46,106 nucleotides of DNA from a virus (Duplodnaviria > Heunggongvirae > Uroviricota > Caudoviricetes). The notes under the pieces were generated by a model. It was not told the origin of the DNA. It saw nothing but the letters and a program-made list of their open reading frames with translations, and did no database searches. Location: the IMG/VR virus record IMGVR_UViG_2563366942_000012, one strand, 5' to 3'. Shown here one piece after another: positions 4,537 to 22,606 of the stretch. The stretch's first letter is position 1. Each line of letters begins with the position of its first letter. Both the position numbers and the translations under genes were made by a program.

Positions 4537-4589
4537 GGGTGGCAGAGCAGTCACGGAGTAGAACTGATGCCACCAAAGACTACACATGG
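4537..4589 (-). ncRNA. dicF: DicF small RNA
   Basis: Minus-strand sequence ...GGUGGCAUCAGUUCUACUCCGUGACUGCUCUGCCACCC followed by a U-run closely matches remembered DicF, including the 3' hairpin; lies just upstream of dicB as in the Qin dicB operon. Ends approximate. Confidence 0.7.
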
Positions 4590-10845: not shown

Positions 10846-11082
10846 TTTTATGGATCACCTTTCTGATTGATTTCATATTGGCGAGGTGACGTGAGTTAAG
10901 TAGAATGGCTGCGGGTGCTTGAGGCTATCTGTCTCAGGCATGAACACTGAAAGGCAGATAGAGAAAAGCCCCAGTTAACATTTCGCGTCCTGCAAGACGC
11001 TTAACATTAATCTGAGGCCCAATCTATGTCTCACAAATGTAGGTTAGCCTCTTACGTGCCGAAAGGCAAGGGGAAGCAGGCT

Positions 11083-11238
11083 ATGAAGCAGCAAAAGGCG
11101 ATGTTAATCGCCCTGATCGTCATCTGTTTAACCGTCATAGTGACGGCACTGGTAACGAGGAAAGACCTCTGCGAGGTACGACTCCGAACCGGCCAGACGG
11201 AGGTCGCTGTCTTCACAGCTTACGAACCTGAGGAGTAA
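11083..11238 (+). CDS. hok: Hok/Gef-family type I toxin (HokD/RelF-like)
   Basis: 51 aa MKQQKAMLIALIVICLTVIVTALVTRKDLCEVRLRTGQTEVAVFTAYEPEE matches the Hok family; in-frame upstream extension resembles a mok-like leader ORF. Confidence 0.8.
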   Translation: MKQQKAMLIALIVICLTVIVTALVTRKDLCEVRLRTGQTEVAVFTAYEPEE

Positions 11239-15447: not shown

Positions 15448-15523
15448 CGGCCCTTTAGCTCAGTGGTGAGAGCGAGCGACTCATAATCGCCAGGTCGCTG
15501 GTTCAAATCCAGCAAGGGCCACC
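15448..15523 (+). tRNA. tRNA with CAU anticodon, ileX-like (tRNA-Ile2, lysidine) rather than tRNA-Met
   Basis: 76 nt cloverleaf: acceptor GGCCCTT/AAGGGCC, anticodon loop CUCAUAA, T-loop TTCAAAT, 3' CCA; close to my recollection of E. coli ileX. Confidence 0.8.
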
Positions 15524-15530
15524 ATCACAT

Positions 15531-15607
15531 ACCGCCATTAGCTCATCAGGAAAGAGCGCCAGCTTTCGAAGCTGGTTGCGCGGAGTTCGGGTCCCCGAAG
15601 GCGGTCC
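15531..15607 (+). tRNA. tRNA-Arg-like (UCG anticodon), with non-canonical features
   Basis: 77 nt cloverleaf with anticodon loop UUUCGAA and 3' CCA, but one mismatch each in acceptor and T stems and an unusual T-loop TTCGGGT; middle tRNA of the Stx-phage-style ile-arg-arg trio. Confidence 0.55.
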
Positions 15608-15620
15608 ATTATCTGTATCC

Positions 15621-15697
15621 TGCGTTGTTAGCTCAGCCGGACAGAGCAATTGCCTTCTAAGCAATCGGTCACTGGTTCGAATCCAGTACAACGCGCC
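15621..15697 (+). tRNA. tRNA-Arg (UCU anticodon)
   Basis: 77 nt; acceptor GCGTTGT/ACAACGC, anticodon loop CUUCUAA, T-loop TTCGAAT, 3' CCA. Confidence 0.85.
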
Positions 15698-15742: not shown

Positions 15743-15957
15743 CTCACAATTCAGGCGGTTGACTGTTGTCTGGTTTGCGGGGAGTTTGTTAAAAGAAACT
15801 GGCATGGTGAATCCCCCTGTGCGGAGGGGCAATCAGCGAGTAGGTATATGGGATAATCGCGGATTCAGGTGCTGGTACTGAATTCACCGGGAGGCACCCG
15901 GCACCATGCAATGGCACATAGCGCCACTCTCCAGCCCCTCTCCGGAGGGGCTTTTCT
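15743..15957 (+). repeat. Structured repeat unit, copy 1, ending in a strong intrinsic terminator
   Basis: Shares CTCACAATTCAG...GTTGAC...GGTGAATCCCCCTG(T/A)GCGGAGGGGC...CACCGGGAGGCACCCGGCACCATG...AGCCCCTCTCCGGAGGGGCTTT with copy 2; three GC-rich hairpins, the last being a perfect 8 bp stem plus T-run. Confidence 0.7.
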
Positions 15958-16146
15958 GTGCCGGATACATCACAGTTTCTGGAACCTTAGGTACTACAGT
16001 ATCAGTCAGGGTGCTATATTTTCAGATGTGATGAAAGCCTGTCAGCAGGCAGGGCGTATCGGAAATGACCCAGTAGAGAAAACGTTGACTCAGATACCGG
16101 TGCTGAGTTACCGGGAAACCGGCATCACATGACCGCTATCCTTCCA

Positions 16147-16210: not shown

Positions 16211-16443
16211 CTCACAATTCAGTAAGTTGACAGTTGCCTGTCAGACTGGGCATTTGTTAAAAAAATTTCGCATGGTGAATCCCCCTGAGCGGAGGGGCGA
16301 CTGGTGACGGTATAATCTCTGATTATCAAAACGAGAATGACGCGGGTTTAGTGGCACCGGGCTGAACTCACCGGGAGGCACCCGGCACCATGTGCATGAT
16401 GATACAGATACGCGGCTTTAGCCCCTCTCCGGAGGGGCTTTCT
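16211..16443 (+). repeat. Structured repeat unit, copy 2, ending in the same terminator hairpin
   Basis: Imperfect direct repeat of 15743..15957 with the same hairpins; contains TTGACA and a perfect TATAAT hexamer (not at consensus spacing to each other). Confidence 0.7.
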
Positions 16444-16672
16444 TATGGACAAAAAAAGCCCGCGCTGGGAGACGCGGGCGGCAAGGAATAAACAATAAAA
16501 CGTGAAGTAATATTTCAGCTGGCGAATAATACCCCATAGTAATCACTCTGCGCAACTGCGCGGTCTTTTTCGAATTGCGGGCTGTAGTCTCCCTTCTGCC
16601 ATTGTCCTGTAACTTCCGGACTTCAGCCTGCTCCTTATCTGACTCACAACATTATCCCGCCCGGGAGGATTC

Positions 16673-20416: not shown

Positions 20417-20884
20417 ATGAACCGCGTACTGTGCGTGGTCATCATTGCCCTGCTGGTGGCCTGTGGTGCGCTTAGTCTGGGGCTGAATCATTACCGTGAT
20501 AACGCCATTACCTACAAAGCCCAGCGCGACAAAAATGTCAGAGAACTGAAGCTGGCGAACGCGGCAATTACTGACATGCAGATGCGTCAGCGTGATGTTG
20601 CTGCGCTCGATGCAAAATACACGAAGGAGTTAGCTGATGCGAAAGCTGAAAATGAAACTCTTCGCGCTGACGTTGCCGCTGGTCGTAAGCGCCTGCGTAT
20701 CAACGCCACCTGTCCAGGTCCCGTGCGTGAAGCCACCGGCACCGCCCGCGTGGATAATGCAACCGGCCCCCAACTGGCAGACACCGTTACACGGGATTAT
20801 TTCACCCTCAGAGAGCGGCTGATGACGATGCAGAAGCAACTGGAAGGGGCGCAGGAATATATCCGTACTCAGTGCCTGAAATAA
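20417..20884 (+). CDS. Rz: Spanin, inner-membrane subunit Rz
   Basis: 155 aa; N-terminal transmembrane segment, coiled-coil periplasmic domain; Rz1 embedded in +1 frame. Confidence 0.85.
20637..20822 (+). CDS. Rz1: Spanin, outer-membrane lipoprotein subunit Rz1
   Basis: 61 aa embedded in Rz in a different frame; signal peptide with lipobox LVVSAC and proline-rich mature region. Confidence 0.8.
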
Positions 20885-21507
20885 GTTTTGTTGATGCGCC
20901 GTATCGTCGCTGTATTCCCTCATTAACAGAGACCGCAGCCCGACAGGGAGACTCCTCTGCGCGAGTGTGCGGGGATAATCAAAAACGATACACACCGGGG
21001 TTTACCGCGTTAACGGAGCGCGGCGTTGTCCCCTCATAGTCGCCTGTCCGGTGCGATGGTGGAAGAAACCGGATGTTTATCACTATTAATTGATGACACA
21101 GAAATGGATTCATTGAATTTCAGCACGTTTTTGTATTCGTGTTATTGAACATCTGTTTATTTTACTTTTAACATATTGATAATAAAAAGAGCTGTAAATC
21201 TTTAGATGAGTCGATTTTGTCCGGGGAAGTTCAAATGGATTTTATGCTGACGGTTTCTGGTGTGGTTATCCTGTCCATTGCTTATACTGCAGATAAATAT
21301 GGCTGCCATTTGTTATCACGTATTGGCGCTTATTGTTCGTTGATGCTGATTTTCTCGTCGCTTTTTTTTGAGTAAGTTATATTAATTATAACAAATAATT
21401 TTCTGTGTTATTTTTTCAGGCTATCCCGTCAGAGGGGAAGCCTGTACTGCCGGGGAGCGAATGGAAAACTGATGTGTCCGGTAACTGCGTGTTCTGTGAA
21501 CACCATG

Positions 21508-21693
21508 TTACTTAATTATGTAATTCATACCCGAACTCTCTGTTGACAGCCTTCTTCTGCAGGCTTCAATAACCCACGCTGAAAAGTTTCCTGAACCTTT
21601 CAGATCAAGAGCGATGTTAATTTGTTCAATCATCTGGTTTGGAAATCGGATGTTGCGGGTTGTTGTTCTGCGGGTTCTGTTCTTTGATGACAT
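21508..21693 (-). CDS. Ribbon-helix-helix-like small DNA-binding protein
   Basis: 61 aa; basic N-terminus then IRFPNQMIEQINIALDLKG...FSAWVIEACRRRL consistent with a beta-alpha-alpha RHH fold; in an AT-rich block between Rz and cos; palindrome ATCAATTA-n17-TAATTGAT upstream. Confidence 0.5.
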   Translation of the reverse strand: MSSKNRTRRTTTRNIRFPNQMIEQINIALDLKGSGNFSAWVIEACRRRLSTESSGMNYIIK

Positions 21694-21879
21694 AATGTTT
21701 CCCCATATTCAGTGTTGCTGATTTGTATTATCTGAAGTTGCTTTTACGTTAATTTGATGCAGATCAATTAATACGATACCTGCGTCATAATTGATTATTT
21801 CTCGTGGTTTGATGGCGTACACACATGTTGTGATAAACCTTATATAGATGATAATCATTATCATTTTCGTGGGTCCTTT

Positions 21880-22080
21880 CCGGCGATCCGACCGGTTACG
21901 GGGCGGCGACCTCGCGGATTTTCACTATTTATGAAAATTTTCCGGGATCCATGTCCGGTTTCTCTGCAAGTTAACCATATGAAAAATATAAAAACATGCT
22001 TTCCATGAACCGGACATGCGCAAAAAATAGACACTAAAACCGGACATGACCGGTTTTGTTGTGATTGTGAGGTGAGAGTT
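21880..22080 (+). other. cos: cos site: cosN with lambda-identical 12-nt cohesive-end sequence (21901..21912) plus cosB-like terminase-binding repeats
   Basis: GGTTACG-GGGCGGCGACCT-CGCGGATTTTCACTATTTATGAAAATTTTCC matches the lambda genome ends as I remember them; downstream three copies of CCGGACATG (one inverted) at about 21950, 22010 and 22040 with an AT-rich spacer. Confidence 0.8.
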
Positions 22081-22096
22081 TTTTGCGAGGTGAGGA

Positions 22097-22606
22097 GTGG
22101 CTACGCAGACTGAAGTTGCCAGGCATTTAAGTCTGACCGATCGCCAGCTTCGCAGATTGCAGAAATTGCCGGGTGCCCCGATATCGAATAAGCGAGGGCA
22201 ACTGGATCTGGATGCCTGGCGCGATTTTTACATATCGTATCTGAGAAGAAGTAAAAACGATGTGCCTGATGGCGATAGCGAAGACGACTATGAGGAGAAA
22301 TTGCTTATTGCCAGATGGGAACTGACAGCAGAACAGGCTGTTACACAGCAGTTAAAAAATGAGGTGTCAAAAGGAAAACTTATTGACACCGGGTTCTGTA
22401 TTTTTGCCCTCAGCAAGCTGGCAATGGCGTTATCCAGTACGCTTGATTCCATCCCTTTATCCATGCAGCGACAGTTTCCTGATTTAACACCGCGCCATCT
22501 TGACCATCTGAAAACCCTTATTGCGAAGGGGGCAAATCAGTGTGCGCGGGCGGGGGATAAATTACCGGATTTACTCGATGAATATATCAGAGCAACAACT
22601 GAATAA
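22097..22606 (+). CDS. nu1: Terminase small subunit (Nu1-like, with a divergent N-terminal DNA-binding domain)
   Basis: 169 aa from GTG; C-terminal half aligns with remembered lambda Nu1 (FCIFALSKLA..., LPDLLDEYI); overlaps the terminase large subunit start. Confidence 0.8.
   Translation: MATQTEVARHLSLTDRQLRRLQKLPGAPISNKRGQLDLDAWRDFYISYLRRSKNDVPDGDSEDDYEEKLLIARWELTAEQAVTQQLKNEVSKGKLIDTGFCIFALSKLAMALSSTLDSIPLSMQRQFPDLTPRHLDHLKTLIAKGANQCARAGDKLPDLLDEYIRATTE

What the first reader, a model, noticed from the sequence alone, without database searches (positions are those of the whole stretch)
20885..21900. AT-rich moron block between Rz and cos with a ribbon-helix-helix gene and palindromic operator
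The segment from about 21060 to 21880 is far more AT-rich than the flanking lysis and terminase genes. It encodes, on the minus strand, a 61 aa RHH-like DNA-binding protein; upstream of it lies a 33 bp palindrome ATCAATTA-n17-TAATTGAT suited to autoregulation. On the plus strand there is a 45-codon hydrophobic ORF (21234..21371). No bor-like lipoprotein is present here. An RHH regulator paired with a small hydrophobic peptide could be a toxin-antitoxin-like or exclusion module, but this is speculative.
Basis: partly seen in the sequence, partly recalled or inferred. Interest (0 to 1): 0.45.

Follow-up and report, generated by a model that had tools for sequence, protein, structure and literature searches.

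The report
Lambda right-end RHH gene plus moron
The stretch between the lysis genes and the packaging site of this E. coli lambda-like prophage holds a very common small DNA-binding gene of unknown role, which phage lambda itself also carries, next to a swapped-in AT-rich insert encoding a tiny membrane protein; it is ordinary and shows no sign of a toxin-antitoxin or defence system.

Summary

- **What the window is:** a lambdoid E. coli prophage. The region is 100% identical to many RefSeq genomes, where it is annotated "YlcI/YnfO family protein" plus "hypothetical protein".
- **The 61-aa ORF (21508-21693, minus strand):** DUF3950 (PF13132, E=9e-19). Its sequence pattern, predicted topology and weak profile matches are Arc/Mnt-like ribbon-helix-helix.
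- **Shared with lambda:** the gene and the 33-bp palindrome (21763-21795) also occur in lambda. There the ORF (48109-48303, complement) is unannotated and the palindrome is identical. K-12 DLP12 carries the gene as ylcI.
- **The optional block:** 21076-21847 is absent from phi80 and from one Stx1 phage. Both still keep the Fur box, cosQ and cosN.
- **The recently swapped part:** 21096-~21556, which carries a 46-aa two-helix membrane ORF restricted to E. coli.
- **The palindrome:** it is the least variable part of the DUF3950 upstream region, so it is a plausible operator. However, DUF3950 genes next to HNH-type packaging modules lack it.
- **Pairing of the two genes:** DUF3950 and the small ORF assort independently and are convergent. 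A toxin-antitoxin or exclusion pairing is therefore not supported.

The function of DUF3950 remains untested.

The parts
20885..21075 (.). GC-rich conserved linker after Rz. It is non-coding by the evidence here, and its end (GGAAGAAACCGGATG, 21061-21075) marks the left edge of the optional block.
   Evidence: - GC is 0.571.
- It is 79% identical to lambda 46868-46981, and 21061-21077 matches lambda 47020-36. Both lie in the bor/lambdap78 intergenic region, and the reading frame is not kept in lambda.
- It is more than 91% conserved in 21 of the 23 variants found among the fetched loci (83-84% in the other two).
- No RNA signal: fold z-score -0.96 and no Rfam match.
- In Stx1 phage LC645428 it directly abuts the Fur box.
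21076..21095 (-). Relic of the last codons of a lambda-type DUF3950 gene (...TSIKSD..). It marks the far end of the replaced segment.
   Evidence: It matches lambda 48115-48134 and the DLP12 ylcI 3' end at 18 of 20 bases. This explains the apparent third 'half-site' TATTAATTGAT at 21084.
21096..21507 (.). AT-rich swapped-in segment, the true variable moron. With 21508-~21556 it also supplies the new C-terminal tail and stop codon of the DUF3950 gene.
   Evidence: - GC is 0.371.
- It has no homology to lambda; homology resumes at about 21557.
- It is present at 788 places in 734 of 5426 E. coli genomes.
- It is found next to both lambda-cos and HNH-type packaging modules.
21235..21375 (+). 46-aa ORF with two hydrophobic segments, a putative small inner-membrane protein. 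PGAP annotates it as hypothetical protein WP_000347013.1.
   Evidence: - ORF and annotation.
- Homologues occur only in E. coli.
- A diverged orthologue (71% aa identity) keeps the frame in strain SHP24.
- pN/pS is 0.38, against 0.64-0.77 in the other two frames. This rests on one pair with 24 differences.
- No match in Pfam, PHROG, NCBIfam or PADLOC.
21417..21444 (.). Stable hairpin between the two convergent ORFs.
   Evidence: Free energy is -16.8 kcal/mol (plus strand) and -15.7 (minus strand), with z-scores -3.3 and -3.9. No T-run follows on either strand, and the hairpin is not conserved in SHP24.
21480..21512 (.). Second stable hairpin, overlapping the DUF3950 stop codon.
   Evidence: Free energy is -13.1 and -11.9 kcal/mol, with z-scores -3.1 and -3.4. 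The scan flags it as terminator-like on the plus strand. It is not conserved in SHP24.
21508..21693 (-). DUF3950 / YlcI / YnfO gene: 61 aa, Arc/Mnt-like ribbon-helix-helix, transcribed against the late operon.
   Evidence: - Family matches: PF13132 E=9e-19, NF041551, phrog_949.
- AlphaFold2 model: extended residues 1-18, helices 19-32 and 37-55, mean pLDDT 70.
- hhalign places it in RHH register with Arc, Mnt and the NikR N-domain at p 0.006-0.025, against 0.2-0.6 for controls.
- Lambda encodes a homologous 64-aa ORF, about 90% identical over residues 1-52 with a different C-terminal tail.
21763..21795 (.). 33-bp palindrome ATCAATTA-n17-TAATTGAT (extended arms 11 of 13), the candidate operator in the DUF3950 upstream region.
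   Evidence: - Located.
- Identical in lambda (48373-48405) and DLP12.
- Least variable 33-bp window of the intergenic region.
- Not a stable RNA hairpin: z-scores -0.6 and -1.0.
- Absent from phi80 and LC645428, which also lack DUF3950, and absent from the HNH-linked DUF3950 genes.
21849..21863 (.). Fur box: a perfect 7-1-7 motif TGATAATcATTATCA, matching the E. coli 19-mer consensus at 17 of 19 on the minus strand.
   Evidence: - It is the only site in the window with 15 or more of 19 matches.
- Its arms are conserved while the centre base varies among relatives.
- It occupies the same position as the K-12 nohA and nohB Fur sites. The nohA site is shifted by Fur in a gel assay (PMC2189734).
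- It is kept in phi80 and LC645428.
21871..21877 (+). cosQ (GGGTCCT).
   Evidence: The sequence is identical to lambda's. Its role in packaging termination is taken from PMC4856287.
21901..21912 (+). cosN cohesive-end sequence GGGCGGCGACCT.
   Evidence: It is the 12-base sequence that starts just after the window's match to the last base of the lambda record. In phi80 the same 12 bases are annotated as the sticky end.
21950..22055 (.). cosB-like repeats: AACCGGACATG twice, CATGTCCGGTT, and CATGACCGGTT.
   Evidence: A role as TerS binding sites is inferred from their position only.
22097..22606 (+). Terminase small subunit (Nu1-like C-terminal part).
   Evidence: Pfam Phage_Nu1 E=1e-18, covering residues 49-150 only. 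PGAP annotates it as 'terminase small subunit'.

Best explanation
**Layers of the region**
- 20885-21075 is a conserved linker that follows Rz in many lambdoid phages.
- 21076-21847 is an optional cassette sitting between that linker and the Fur box/cosQ/cosN unit.
- The old, widespread core of the cassette is a DUF3950 (YlcI/YnfO) gene with about 155 bp of its own upstream DNA. Phage lambda has this too.
- A more recent exchange replaced the 3' tail of that gene and everything downstream of it with an AT-rich segment (21096-~21556). The segment carries an independent moron, a 46-aa two-helix membrane protein gene.

**Proposed mechanism (inferred, not shown)**
- The DUF3950 protein is a dimeric Arc/Mnt-like ribbon-helix-helix DNA-binding regulator. 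It is made from the prophage, against the direction of late transcription.
- It binds the conserved palindrome at -71 to -103 as a pair of dimers and so controls its own promoter region.
- Fur, bound at the adjacent box, controls transcription around cos independently.
- The small membrane protein is a separate accessory gene whose role is unknown.
For: **Shown**
- Family membership.
- Lambda and DLP12 share the gene and the palindrome.
- The mosaic boundaries.
- The block is absent from phi80 and LC645428, which retain the Fur box, cosQ and cosN.
- The modules assort independently.
- ylcI is transcribed in K-12 as part of a ybcW-ylcI convergent pair (PMC12288877).
- The palindrome is the most conserved window of the intergenic region and is not an RNA structure.
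- The palindrome lies outside the 238-bp functional cos, lambda 48446-182 (PMC4856287).

**Supporting the DNA-binding regulator inference**
- The protein has a basic N-terminal arm, an N-I-R-F-P strand aligned to Arc's N-L-R-W-P, a G-x-x-N-x-S turn, and two predicted helices.
- It gives a weak match to the RHH part of HicB-like antitoxins.
- Distant DUF3950 homologues occur in five satellite-like elements laid out as int-alpA-ant/bro-[DUF3950 on the opposite strand]-primase. Each carries 2-3 repeated pseudo-palindromes upstream of the DUF3950 gene. In some the motif is GTGYRYAAACAC at 23-bp spacing and is found nowhere else in the fetched loci. In Xenorhabdus it is TGGTACGTACC twice, over the -10 element and the ribosome-binding site.
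Against: - No binding, expression or phenotype data exist for any DUF3950 protein (literature searches).
- No solved-structure or Foldseek match confirms the fold.
- No sigma-70 promoter was found for the gene. The palindrome therefore lies where an activator site or UP-like element would be expected, not over a recognisable -35/-10.
- About 28% of E. coli DUF3950 copies, including near-identical proteins next to HNH/P27-type terminase genes, lack the palindrome and have no other inverted repeat upstream.
- An 8-bp inverted repeat is not rare by chance.
- Conservation was measured on related, recombining sequences.
Confidence: 0.5

Rival explanations
1. The DUF3950 protein is a DNA-binding regulator, but the palindrome is not its operator. 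Instead the palindrome is a site for a host nucleoid or regulatory protein (IHF-, H-NS- or Fur-like AT-rich recognition), or simply a well-kept piece of promoter architecture. The RHH protein would then act elsewhere, for example in trans on other prophages or satellites.
For: - HNH-linked DUF3950 genes encode almost the same DNA-reading strand but lack the palindrome.
- The palindrome sits about 30 bp upstream of the best -10-like hexamer, not over it (my reading).
- The arms contain WATCAA-like and TCGTATTAATT motifs that resemble IHF and H-NS preferences. This is recalled knowledge, not tested here.
- The centre-to-centre spacing of the 8-bp arms is 25 bp, which is off-phase for two dimers on one face of the helix.
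Against: - In every locus examined the palindrome occurs together with a DUF3950 gene, and it is missing from lambda-cos phages that lack the gene.
- Other DUF3950 subfamilies carry their own repeats upstream of their genes.
- With the extended 13-nt arms the spacing is 20 bp, about two helical turns.
Confidence: 0.27
2. The DUF3950 protein is linked to DNA packaging rather than to transcription. Bound close to cos, it would modulate terminase access, packaging termination, or cos cleavage in the lysogen or by satellites.
For: - In E. coli phages the gene always lies immediately next to the packaging module, whether lambda cos/Nu1 or HNH plus P27-type TerS.
- Four protein clusters fuse DUF3950 to the N-terminal HTH of a Terminase_2 small subunit (P0206, P0235, P0236, P0271).
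- Capsid-forming satellites are reported to carry the family (PMC13612085).
Against: - A 238-bp cos that excludes the palindrome is sufficient for cos cleavage in vitro (PMC4856287).
- phi80 and an Stx1 phage with the same cosQ and cosN lack the gene.
- In the satellites the gene sits at the regulatory int/alpA-primase junction, not beside the terminase or capsid genes.
- The gene is on the strand opposite to the late operon.
Confidence: 0.1
3. One reading: the RHH protein and the hydrophobic peptide form a toxin-antitoxin-like or superinfection-exclusion module.
For: - The small ORF is hydrophobic, like type I toxins and some exclusion proteins.
- RHH domains are common in antitoxins, and there is a weak HicB-like PHROG match.
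- DUF3950 C-terminal tails are variable.
- The two genes are convergent, so antisense overlap is possible, as reported for ybcW-ylcI.
Against: - The genes are not co-transcribed.
- DUF3950 occurs about 12 times more often than the small ORF and pairs with bor/ybcV/ybcW, a TonB_C-like lipoprotein, or nothing.
- There is no PADLOC, Pfam or NCBIfam match to any toxin, and no Rfam antisense RNA.
- Truncated and frameshifted variants of the small ORF exist in databases.
Confidence: 0.06
4. The 46-aa ORF is not a real gene, and the AT-rich segment is non-coding filler or the remnant of an old exchange.
For: - The ORF is restricted to E. coli and matches no family.
- Its C-terminus ends in a slippery T8 run, with variable ends in databases.
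- No consensus promoter is found on its strand.
- The evidence for selection rests on a single diverged pair.
Against: - The frame, the start codon context (GGGGAA 7-13 nt upstream) and the two hydrophobic segments are kept at 77% nucleotide identity in SHP24.
- pN/pS is 0.38, lower than in the other frames.
- A 45-nt AT-rich block upstream is almost invariant between the two diverged versions.
- PGAP and the Sakai annotation (ECs_1538) both call it.
Confidence: 0.25

Closest known systems
YlcI (DLP12) / YnfO (Qin) of E. coli K-12 and the unannotated 64-aa ORF at lambda 48109-48303; Pfam DUF3950, NCBIfam NF041551, phrog_949
   Same: It belongs to the same family (about 90% identical over residues 1-52). 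It has the same position between the Rz-side morons and cos/Nu1(noh), the same orientation, and the same upstream palindrome and Fur box.
   Different: The C-terminal 12 residues differ (STESSGMNYIIK versus TSEKRAYTSIKSDEE). The downstream neighbours bor, ybcV and ybcW are replaced by the small-ORF segment.
Arc and Mnt repressors of phage P22 (ribbon-helix-helix)
   Same: Similar size, a basic N-terminal arm, an N-(I/L)-R-(F/W)-P strand motif, a helix-turn-helix arrangement with a G-x-x-N-x-S turn, a phage origin, and a small palindromic candidate operator.
   Different: There is no significant sequence or Foldseek match. Binding and dimerisation are untested. The gene is not part of an immunity region.
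Lambda bor / lom-type morons (Juhala et al. 2000 concept)
   Same: Extra AT-rich DNA between conserved late-region modules. It is present in some relatives and absent in others, and it lies in the same slot as bor.
   Different: No bor-like lipoprotein is present. A promoter and terminator were not demonstrated. The product is a 46-aa membrane peptide of unknown role.
nohA / nohB(D) Fur-binding sites of K-12 cryptic prophages
   Same: A perfect Fur 7-1-7 motif at the same place, just left of cosQ/cosN and upstream of the Nu1 homologue.
   Different: Fur binding was not tested for this sequence. Which promoter it controls is unknown.
Master-repressor position of phage satellites (SaPI Stl-like layout; Gram-negative PICI int-alpA modules)
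   Same: Distant DUF3950 homologues are the only opposite-strand gene between the int/alpA/ant genes and the primase operon, and they have repeated operator-like sites upstream.
   Different: Those are other subfamilies (33-53% identity) in satellites. The window's gene lies in a phage late region, and no repressor function has been shown anywhere.

Membership tests
DUF3950 / YlcI / YnfO (PF13132, NF041551) | HMM score above the curated cut-off | tested here: met
   PF13132 scores 67.5 bits against a cut-off of 25. NF041551 scores 35.2 against 30. phrog_949 gives E=9e-32.
DUF3950 / YlcI / YnfO | Prophage location between the lysis cassette and the packaging genes, as for ylcI and ynfO | tested here: met
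   The window and APEC O18 annotation, DLP12, lambda, and 94 loci.
Ribbon-helix-helix (Arc/MetJ) superfamily | N-terminal beta-strand followed by two helices joined by a G-x-(S/T/N)-type turn | tested here: met
   The AlphaFold2 monomer has extended residues 1-18 and helices 19-32 and 37-55. The GSGNFS turn and the alternating N-I-R-F strand are conserved across the family. This is a prediction, not a structure.
Ribbon-helix-helix (Arc/MetJ) superfamily | Significant sequence or structure match to a known RHH protein | tested here: inconclusive
   hhalign gives in-register matches to Arc, Mnt and the NikR N-domain at p 0.006-0.025, against 0.2-0.6 for controls. No Pfam RHH family matches. There is no PDB sequence hit and no Foldseek hit.
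Ribbon-helix-helix (Arc/MetJ) superfamily | Homodimer with an intermolecular two-stranded sheet that binds the DNA major groove | not testable with these tools
   Only monomer prediction was available, and no DNA-binding assay.
Type II toxin-antitoxin (RHH antitoxin) | Adjacent co-transcribed toxin gene | tested here: not met
   No co-directional neighbour exists. The next ORF is convergent and 132 bp away. The neighbours vary among loci.
Type I toxin-antitoxin (hok/ldr/ibs-like) | Small hydrophobic toxin of a known family with a cis-antisense RNA | tested here: not met
   The hydrophobic ORF is present, but it matches no toxin family and there is no Rfam antisense RNA in 20800-22100. The window's real hok/sok is at 10913-11088.
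Moron | DNA present in some and absent from other closely related phages at the same junction, with deviant base composition | tested here: met
   The block is absent from LC645428 and phi80. GC is 0.37 against 0.52-0.57 in the flanks.
Moron | Own promoter and terminator, giving expression from the prophage | tested here: inconclusive
   No plus-strand consensus promoter precedes the small ORF. Two stable hairpins follow it but lack T-runs and are not conserved.
Anti-phage defence systems (PADLOC-DB 2.0) | Match to a defence-protein model | tested here: not met
   No hit for either protein at E of 1 or below.
Fur box | 7-1-7 inverted repeat TGATAATnATTATCA, or at least 15 of 19 matches to GATAATGATAATCATTATC | tested here: met
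   A perfect 7-1-7 at 21849-21863, matching 17 of 19 on the minus strand, and unique in the window. Fur binding was not tested. The K-12 nohA counterpart is shifted by Fur.

The most novel reading that the evidence does not exclude
DUF3950 proteins are a family of small RHH switches shared by lambdoid phages and their satellites. In satellites they would be the master repressor of the primase operon. In phages, bound about 100 bp from cosN, they would couple prophage state or helper-satellite conflict to access to the packaging site. The fusions to a terminase small-subunit DNA-binding domain hint at this. Lambda would then still carry an unannotated, functional regulator at its right end.
Probability: 0.1. 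Interest if true: 0.6.

Novelty: already known. Interest (0 to 1): 0.25.

Why it matters
- **As found, it is routine.** This exact sequence is in many RefSeq genomes with the same annotation. The family is catalogued, though uncharacterised.
- **It cleans up the picture of the region.** The part that is actually variable is the 460-bp small-ORF segment. A documented Fur box lies beside cosQ.
- **It yields a cheap testable hypothesis.** The family is present in about 77% of complete E. coli genomes and in lambda itself. The proposal is an Arc-like repressor with a defined 33-bp candidate operator and defined repeats in satellites. If confirmed, it would remove one item from the E. coli and lambda list of genes of unknown function.

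Tried and rejected
- **Rfam:** gathering thresholds on the whole window and E-value mode on 20800-22100 found nothing in the region.
- **Structured RNA in the GC-rich linker:** rejected. The fold z-score is -0.96 and there is too little variation to test covariation.
- **The palindrome as an RNA hairpin or terminator:** rejected, with z-scores -0.6 and -1.0.
- **EHEC prophage anti-sRNAs:** these map to the pR' moron site, which here holds the STnc100 hits at 15.8-16.5 kb, not to this region.
- **A third 'half-site' at 21084:** explained as a relic of lambda-type tail codons.
- **Solved-structure and fold searches:** PDB sequence search, Foldseek against PDB and against the viral BFVD library gave no usable hits.
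- **Alternative operators in HNH-linked DUF3950 loci:** none found.
- **Literature on DUF3950, YlcI and YnfO:** only incidental mentions. The lambda ribosome-profiling paper and the Casjens-Hendrix review were not held.
- **Contexts of two isolated chromosomal homologues:** uninformative.
- **Junk 'homologues':** many hits from the protein searches are error-ridden reads of lambda control DNA. I excluded them from the alignments.
Full report
**What the window is**

The window is a lambdoid prophage of E. coli. The queried stretch 20885-21900 is 100% identical to many complete RefSeq genomes, including APEC O18 and AR_0017. NCBI's pipeline annotates two genes there: a 'YlcI/YnfO family protein' and a 46-aa 'hypothetical protein'. 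They lie between the Rz 'lysis protein' and a 'terminase small subunit'. The surrounding genes are a class II holin, a lysozyme, Rz/Rz1, then a Nu1-like TerS, TerL, portal and the rest.

**Checking the observation**

- **Base composition.** The AT-rich block is real. GC is 0.369 over 21076-21847, against 0.571 for 20885-21075 and about 0.52 for the lysis and terminase genes.
- **The 61-aa ORF.** It lies at 21508-21693 on the minus strand and matches Pfam DUF3950 (E=9e-19), NCBIfam YlcI_YnfO_N and phrog_949.
- **The palindrome.** ATCAATTA-n17-TAATTGAT is at 21763-21795. With 13-nt arms, 11 of 13 positions pair.
- **No bor.** No bor, ybcV or ybcW homologue is present.

An 8-bp perfect inverted repeat is not rare. 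It appears in 10% of shuffles of the 176-bp intergenic region.

**The key comparison: lambda itself**

The lambda RefSeq record annotates nothing after lambdap79. Yet lambda has a 64-aa ORF at 48109-48303 (complement) with the same N-terminal 52 residues. The 33-bp palindrome is identical in lambda at 48373-48405. K-12 DLP12 has the same order: rzpD-borD-ybcV-ybcW-ylcI-nohD.

The gene and the palindrome are therefore the conserved right end of lambda-type genomes, not something particular to this prophage. Counts in 5426 complete E. coli genomes:

| Feature | Places | Genomes |
|---|---|---|
| DUF3950 gene | 9562 | 4184 |
| Lambda-type upstream region with the palindrome | 6848 | 3766 |
| Small-ORF segment | 788 | 734 |

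**Mosaic anatomy**

- 20895-21010 is 79% identical to lambda 46868-46981, in the bor/lambdap78 intergenic region. 21061-21077 matches lambda 47020-47036.
- 21076-21095 matches the last codons of the lambda-type DUF3950 gene (lambda 48115-48134).
- Homology to lambda then stops and resumes at about 21557, inside the DUF3950 gene.
- The AT-rich 21096-~21556 segment was therefore exchanged into the 3' end of an ancestral lambda-type gene. It gave the gene a new tail (STESSGMNYIIK) and left a 20-bp relic on the other side. That relic explains the third copy of TATTAATTGAT at 21084.
- On the right, homology with phi80, HK225, mEp237 and some Stx1 phages begins exactly at the Fur box at 21849.
- phi80 has another gene there and no DUF3950. 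In Stx1 phage LC645428 the GC-rich linker runs straight into the Fur box, cosQ and cosN.
- The whole 21076-21847 block is therefore dispensable for a lambda-cos phage, and is moron-like in that sense.

Among 94 loci the DUF3950 gene is combined with lambda-cos/Nu1 or with an HNH + P27-type TerS/TerL module. On its other side it is combined with the small ORF, bor/ybcV/ybcW, ybcV alone, a TonB_C-like lipoprotein, or nothing.

**What the protein is**

The family alignment shows a basic N-terminal arm, an invariant I-R-F(-P) strand, a helix, a (G)-x-x-N-F-S turn, and a second helix W-V-x-E-A-C-x-x-x-L.

- **Predicted structure.** AlphaFold2 gives an extended N-terminus and two helices at 19-32 and 37-55, with mean pLDDT 70.
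- **Profile comparisons.** hhalign puts the strand in register with Arc (NLRWP against NIRFP), Mnt and the NikR N-domain at p=0.006-0.025. Four non-RHH controls give 0.2-0.6.
- **PHROGs.** There is a weak hit to the RHH region of HicB-like antitoxins.
- **Structure searches.** Neither the PDB sequence searches nor Foldseek returned a usable match.

I therefore call it RHH-like on pattern and prediction, not proven.

**Is the palindrome its operator?**

For:
- Among 32 distinct lambda-type upstream regions the palindrome is the least variable 33-bp window. It has 1 variable column against 36 of 160 elsewhere (p=0.002, post hoc, on related sequences).
- It does not fold better than shuffled sequence as RNA on either strand.
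- It lies outside the 238-bp functional cos (PMC4856287).
- It is always found with a DUF3950 gene, and it is missing from lambda-cos phages that lack the gene.
- More distant DUF3950 proteins have their own repeats upstream of their genes. GTGYRYAAACAC occurs two or three times at 20-23-bp spacing in three or four satellite loci and nowhere else in 143 fetched loci. TGGTACGTACC occurs twice over the -10 element and the ribosome-binding site in Xenorhabdus.

Against:
- Near-identical proteins next to HNH-type packaging modules have no palindrome and no other inverted repeat upstream.
- No consensus promoter was found.
- The site sits about 30 bp upstream of the best -10-like hexamer rather than over it.

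**The satellites**

In Proteus, Yersinia, Xenorhabdus and two metagenomic contigs, DUF3950 is the single opposite-strand gene between int/alpA/(Bro or AntA) and a primase operon. That is the place where a master repressor would sit. A 2026 survey lists the family in capsid-forming PICIs (PMC13612085).

Four protein clusters fuse DUF3950 to the N-terminal HTH of a Terminase_2 small subunit. That HTH closely resembles the TerS of the HNH-type lambdoid phages. This is a lead towards a packaging link, not evidence of one.

**The Fur box**

TGATAATCATTATCA at 21849-21863 is a perfect 7-1-7 Fur motif. It matches the E. coli consensus at 17 of 19 positions and is the only such site in the 46-kb window. 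Its arms are conserved among relatives while the centre base varies.

It corresponds in position to the nohA and nohB Fur sites of K-12. nohA was picked up as an in vivo Fur-binding fragment and is shifted by Fur in gels. nohB is a 25-bit predicted cluster at -133 (PMC2189734). Which promoter it controls is not known.

**The small ORF**

The product has two hydrophobic stretches. It has homologues only in E. coli and matches no family.

A version at 77% nucleotide identity in strain SHP24 keeps the frame, the start context and the hydrophobic profile. pN/pS there is 0.38, against 0.64-0.77 in the other frames. This is modest support for a real gene. Database variants with altered ends at the T8 run also exist. 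Two stable hairpins lie between the convergent genes, but they lack T-runs and are not conserved.

The two genes are convergent, assort independently, and match no toxin, antitoxin or defence model. I rate this idea at about 6%.

**Verdict**

This is an already catalogued and very common locus. It consists of a DUF3950/YlcI-type RHH-like gene with its conserved upstream palindrome, a Fur box, lambda cos, and a swapped-in AT-rich moron encoding a 46-aa membrane peptide.

The most likely mechanism is a small Arc-like repressor acting on its own upstream palindrome. Overall confidence is about 0.5, and lower for the operator step. Nothing here is surprising to a lambda specialist, except perhaps that the gene is still unannotated in the lambda reference record and entirely uncharacterised.

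Noticed in passing
window 21849-21863: A perfect Fur 7-1-7 box lies immediately left of cosQ. It is conserved in lambda, phi80 and Stx1 phages and corresponds in position to the K-12 nohA/nohB Fur sites. Iron control of transcription around cos is little discussed for lambda.
   Followed up: partly
L003 (NC_001416) 2710-2904, i.e. lambda 48109-48303 complement: The lambda reference record does not annotate the 64-aa DUF3950 ORF (identical in length to K-12 YlcI), although the ORF is intact and conserved.
   Followed up: yes
L133 4714-5103, L134 5001-5384 (proteins P0206, P0235, P0236, P0271): 127-129-aa proteins fuse DUF3950 to the N-terminal HTH of a Terminase_2 small subunit. They occur in satellite-like int-...-primase elements, and GTGYRYAAACAC repeats at 20-23-bp spacing lie upstream of the gene.
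   Followed up: partly
L008-L034 and many ENA proteins: Apparent DUF3950 'homologues' turn up in Streptomyces, Cohnella, Pedobacter, a spider and other hosts, mostly on contigs of about 3.5 kb. They are lambda DNA, very probably sequencing control DNA. Many 50%-cluster representatives are frameshifted noisy reads of it.
   Followed up: partly
window 15773-15963 and 16241-16450; tRNAs 15449-15695: Two STnc100 sRNA copies and three tRNA genes lie downstream of the Q gene. This is the pR' moron site where EHEC prophage anti-sRNAs were described.
   Followed up: no
window 10913-11088 and 4537-4588: A hok/sok type I toxin-antitoxin locus and a DicF sRNA are present in the early region, so the prophage does carry a bona fide type I system elsewhere.
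   Followed up: no
window 21950-22055 and 22097-22606: The cosB-like repeats are AACCGGACATG / CATGTCCGGTT, unlike lambda's R sites. The TerS matches Pfam Phage_Nu1 only over residues 49-150. This suggests a different N-terminal DNA-binding specificity despite a lambda-identical cosQ and cosN.
   Followed up: no
window 20872-21039: A 55-aa ORF over the GC-rich linker hits phrog_6954 'Rz-like spanin' (E=1e-16). The frame is not kept in lambda, so the PHROG label probably comes from annotation by adjacency.
   Followed up: partly
L054 about 2270-2420 (upstream of the DUF3950 gene): In one viral contig, unrelated sequence replaces everything upstream of the palindrome, and the breakpoint is exactly at its outer edge. 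From the reading frame I guessed an insertion-sequence fragment, but I ran no search on it.
   Followed up: no
L144 (phi80) 672-902: phi80 annotates a 'putative Fur-regulated protein' about 1 kb left of cos. This is another hint that iron-regulated accessory genes gather near this junction.
   Followed up: no
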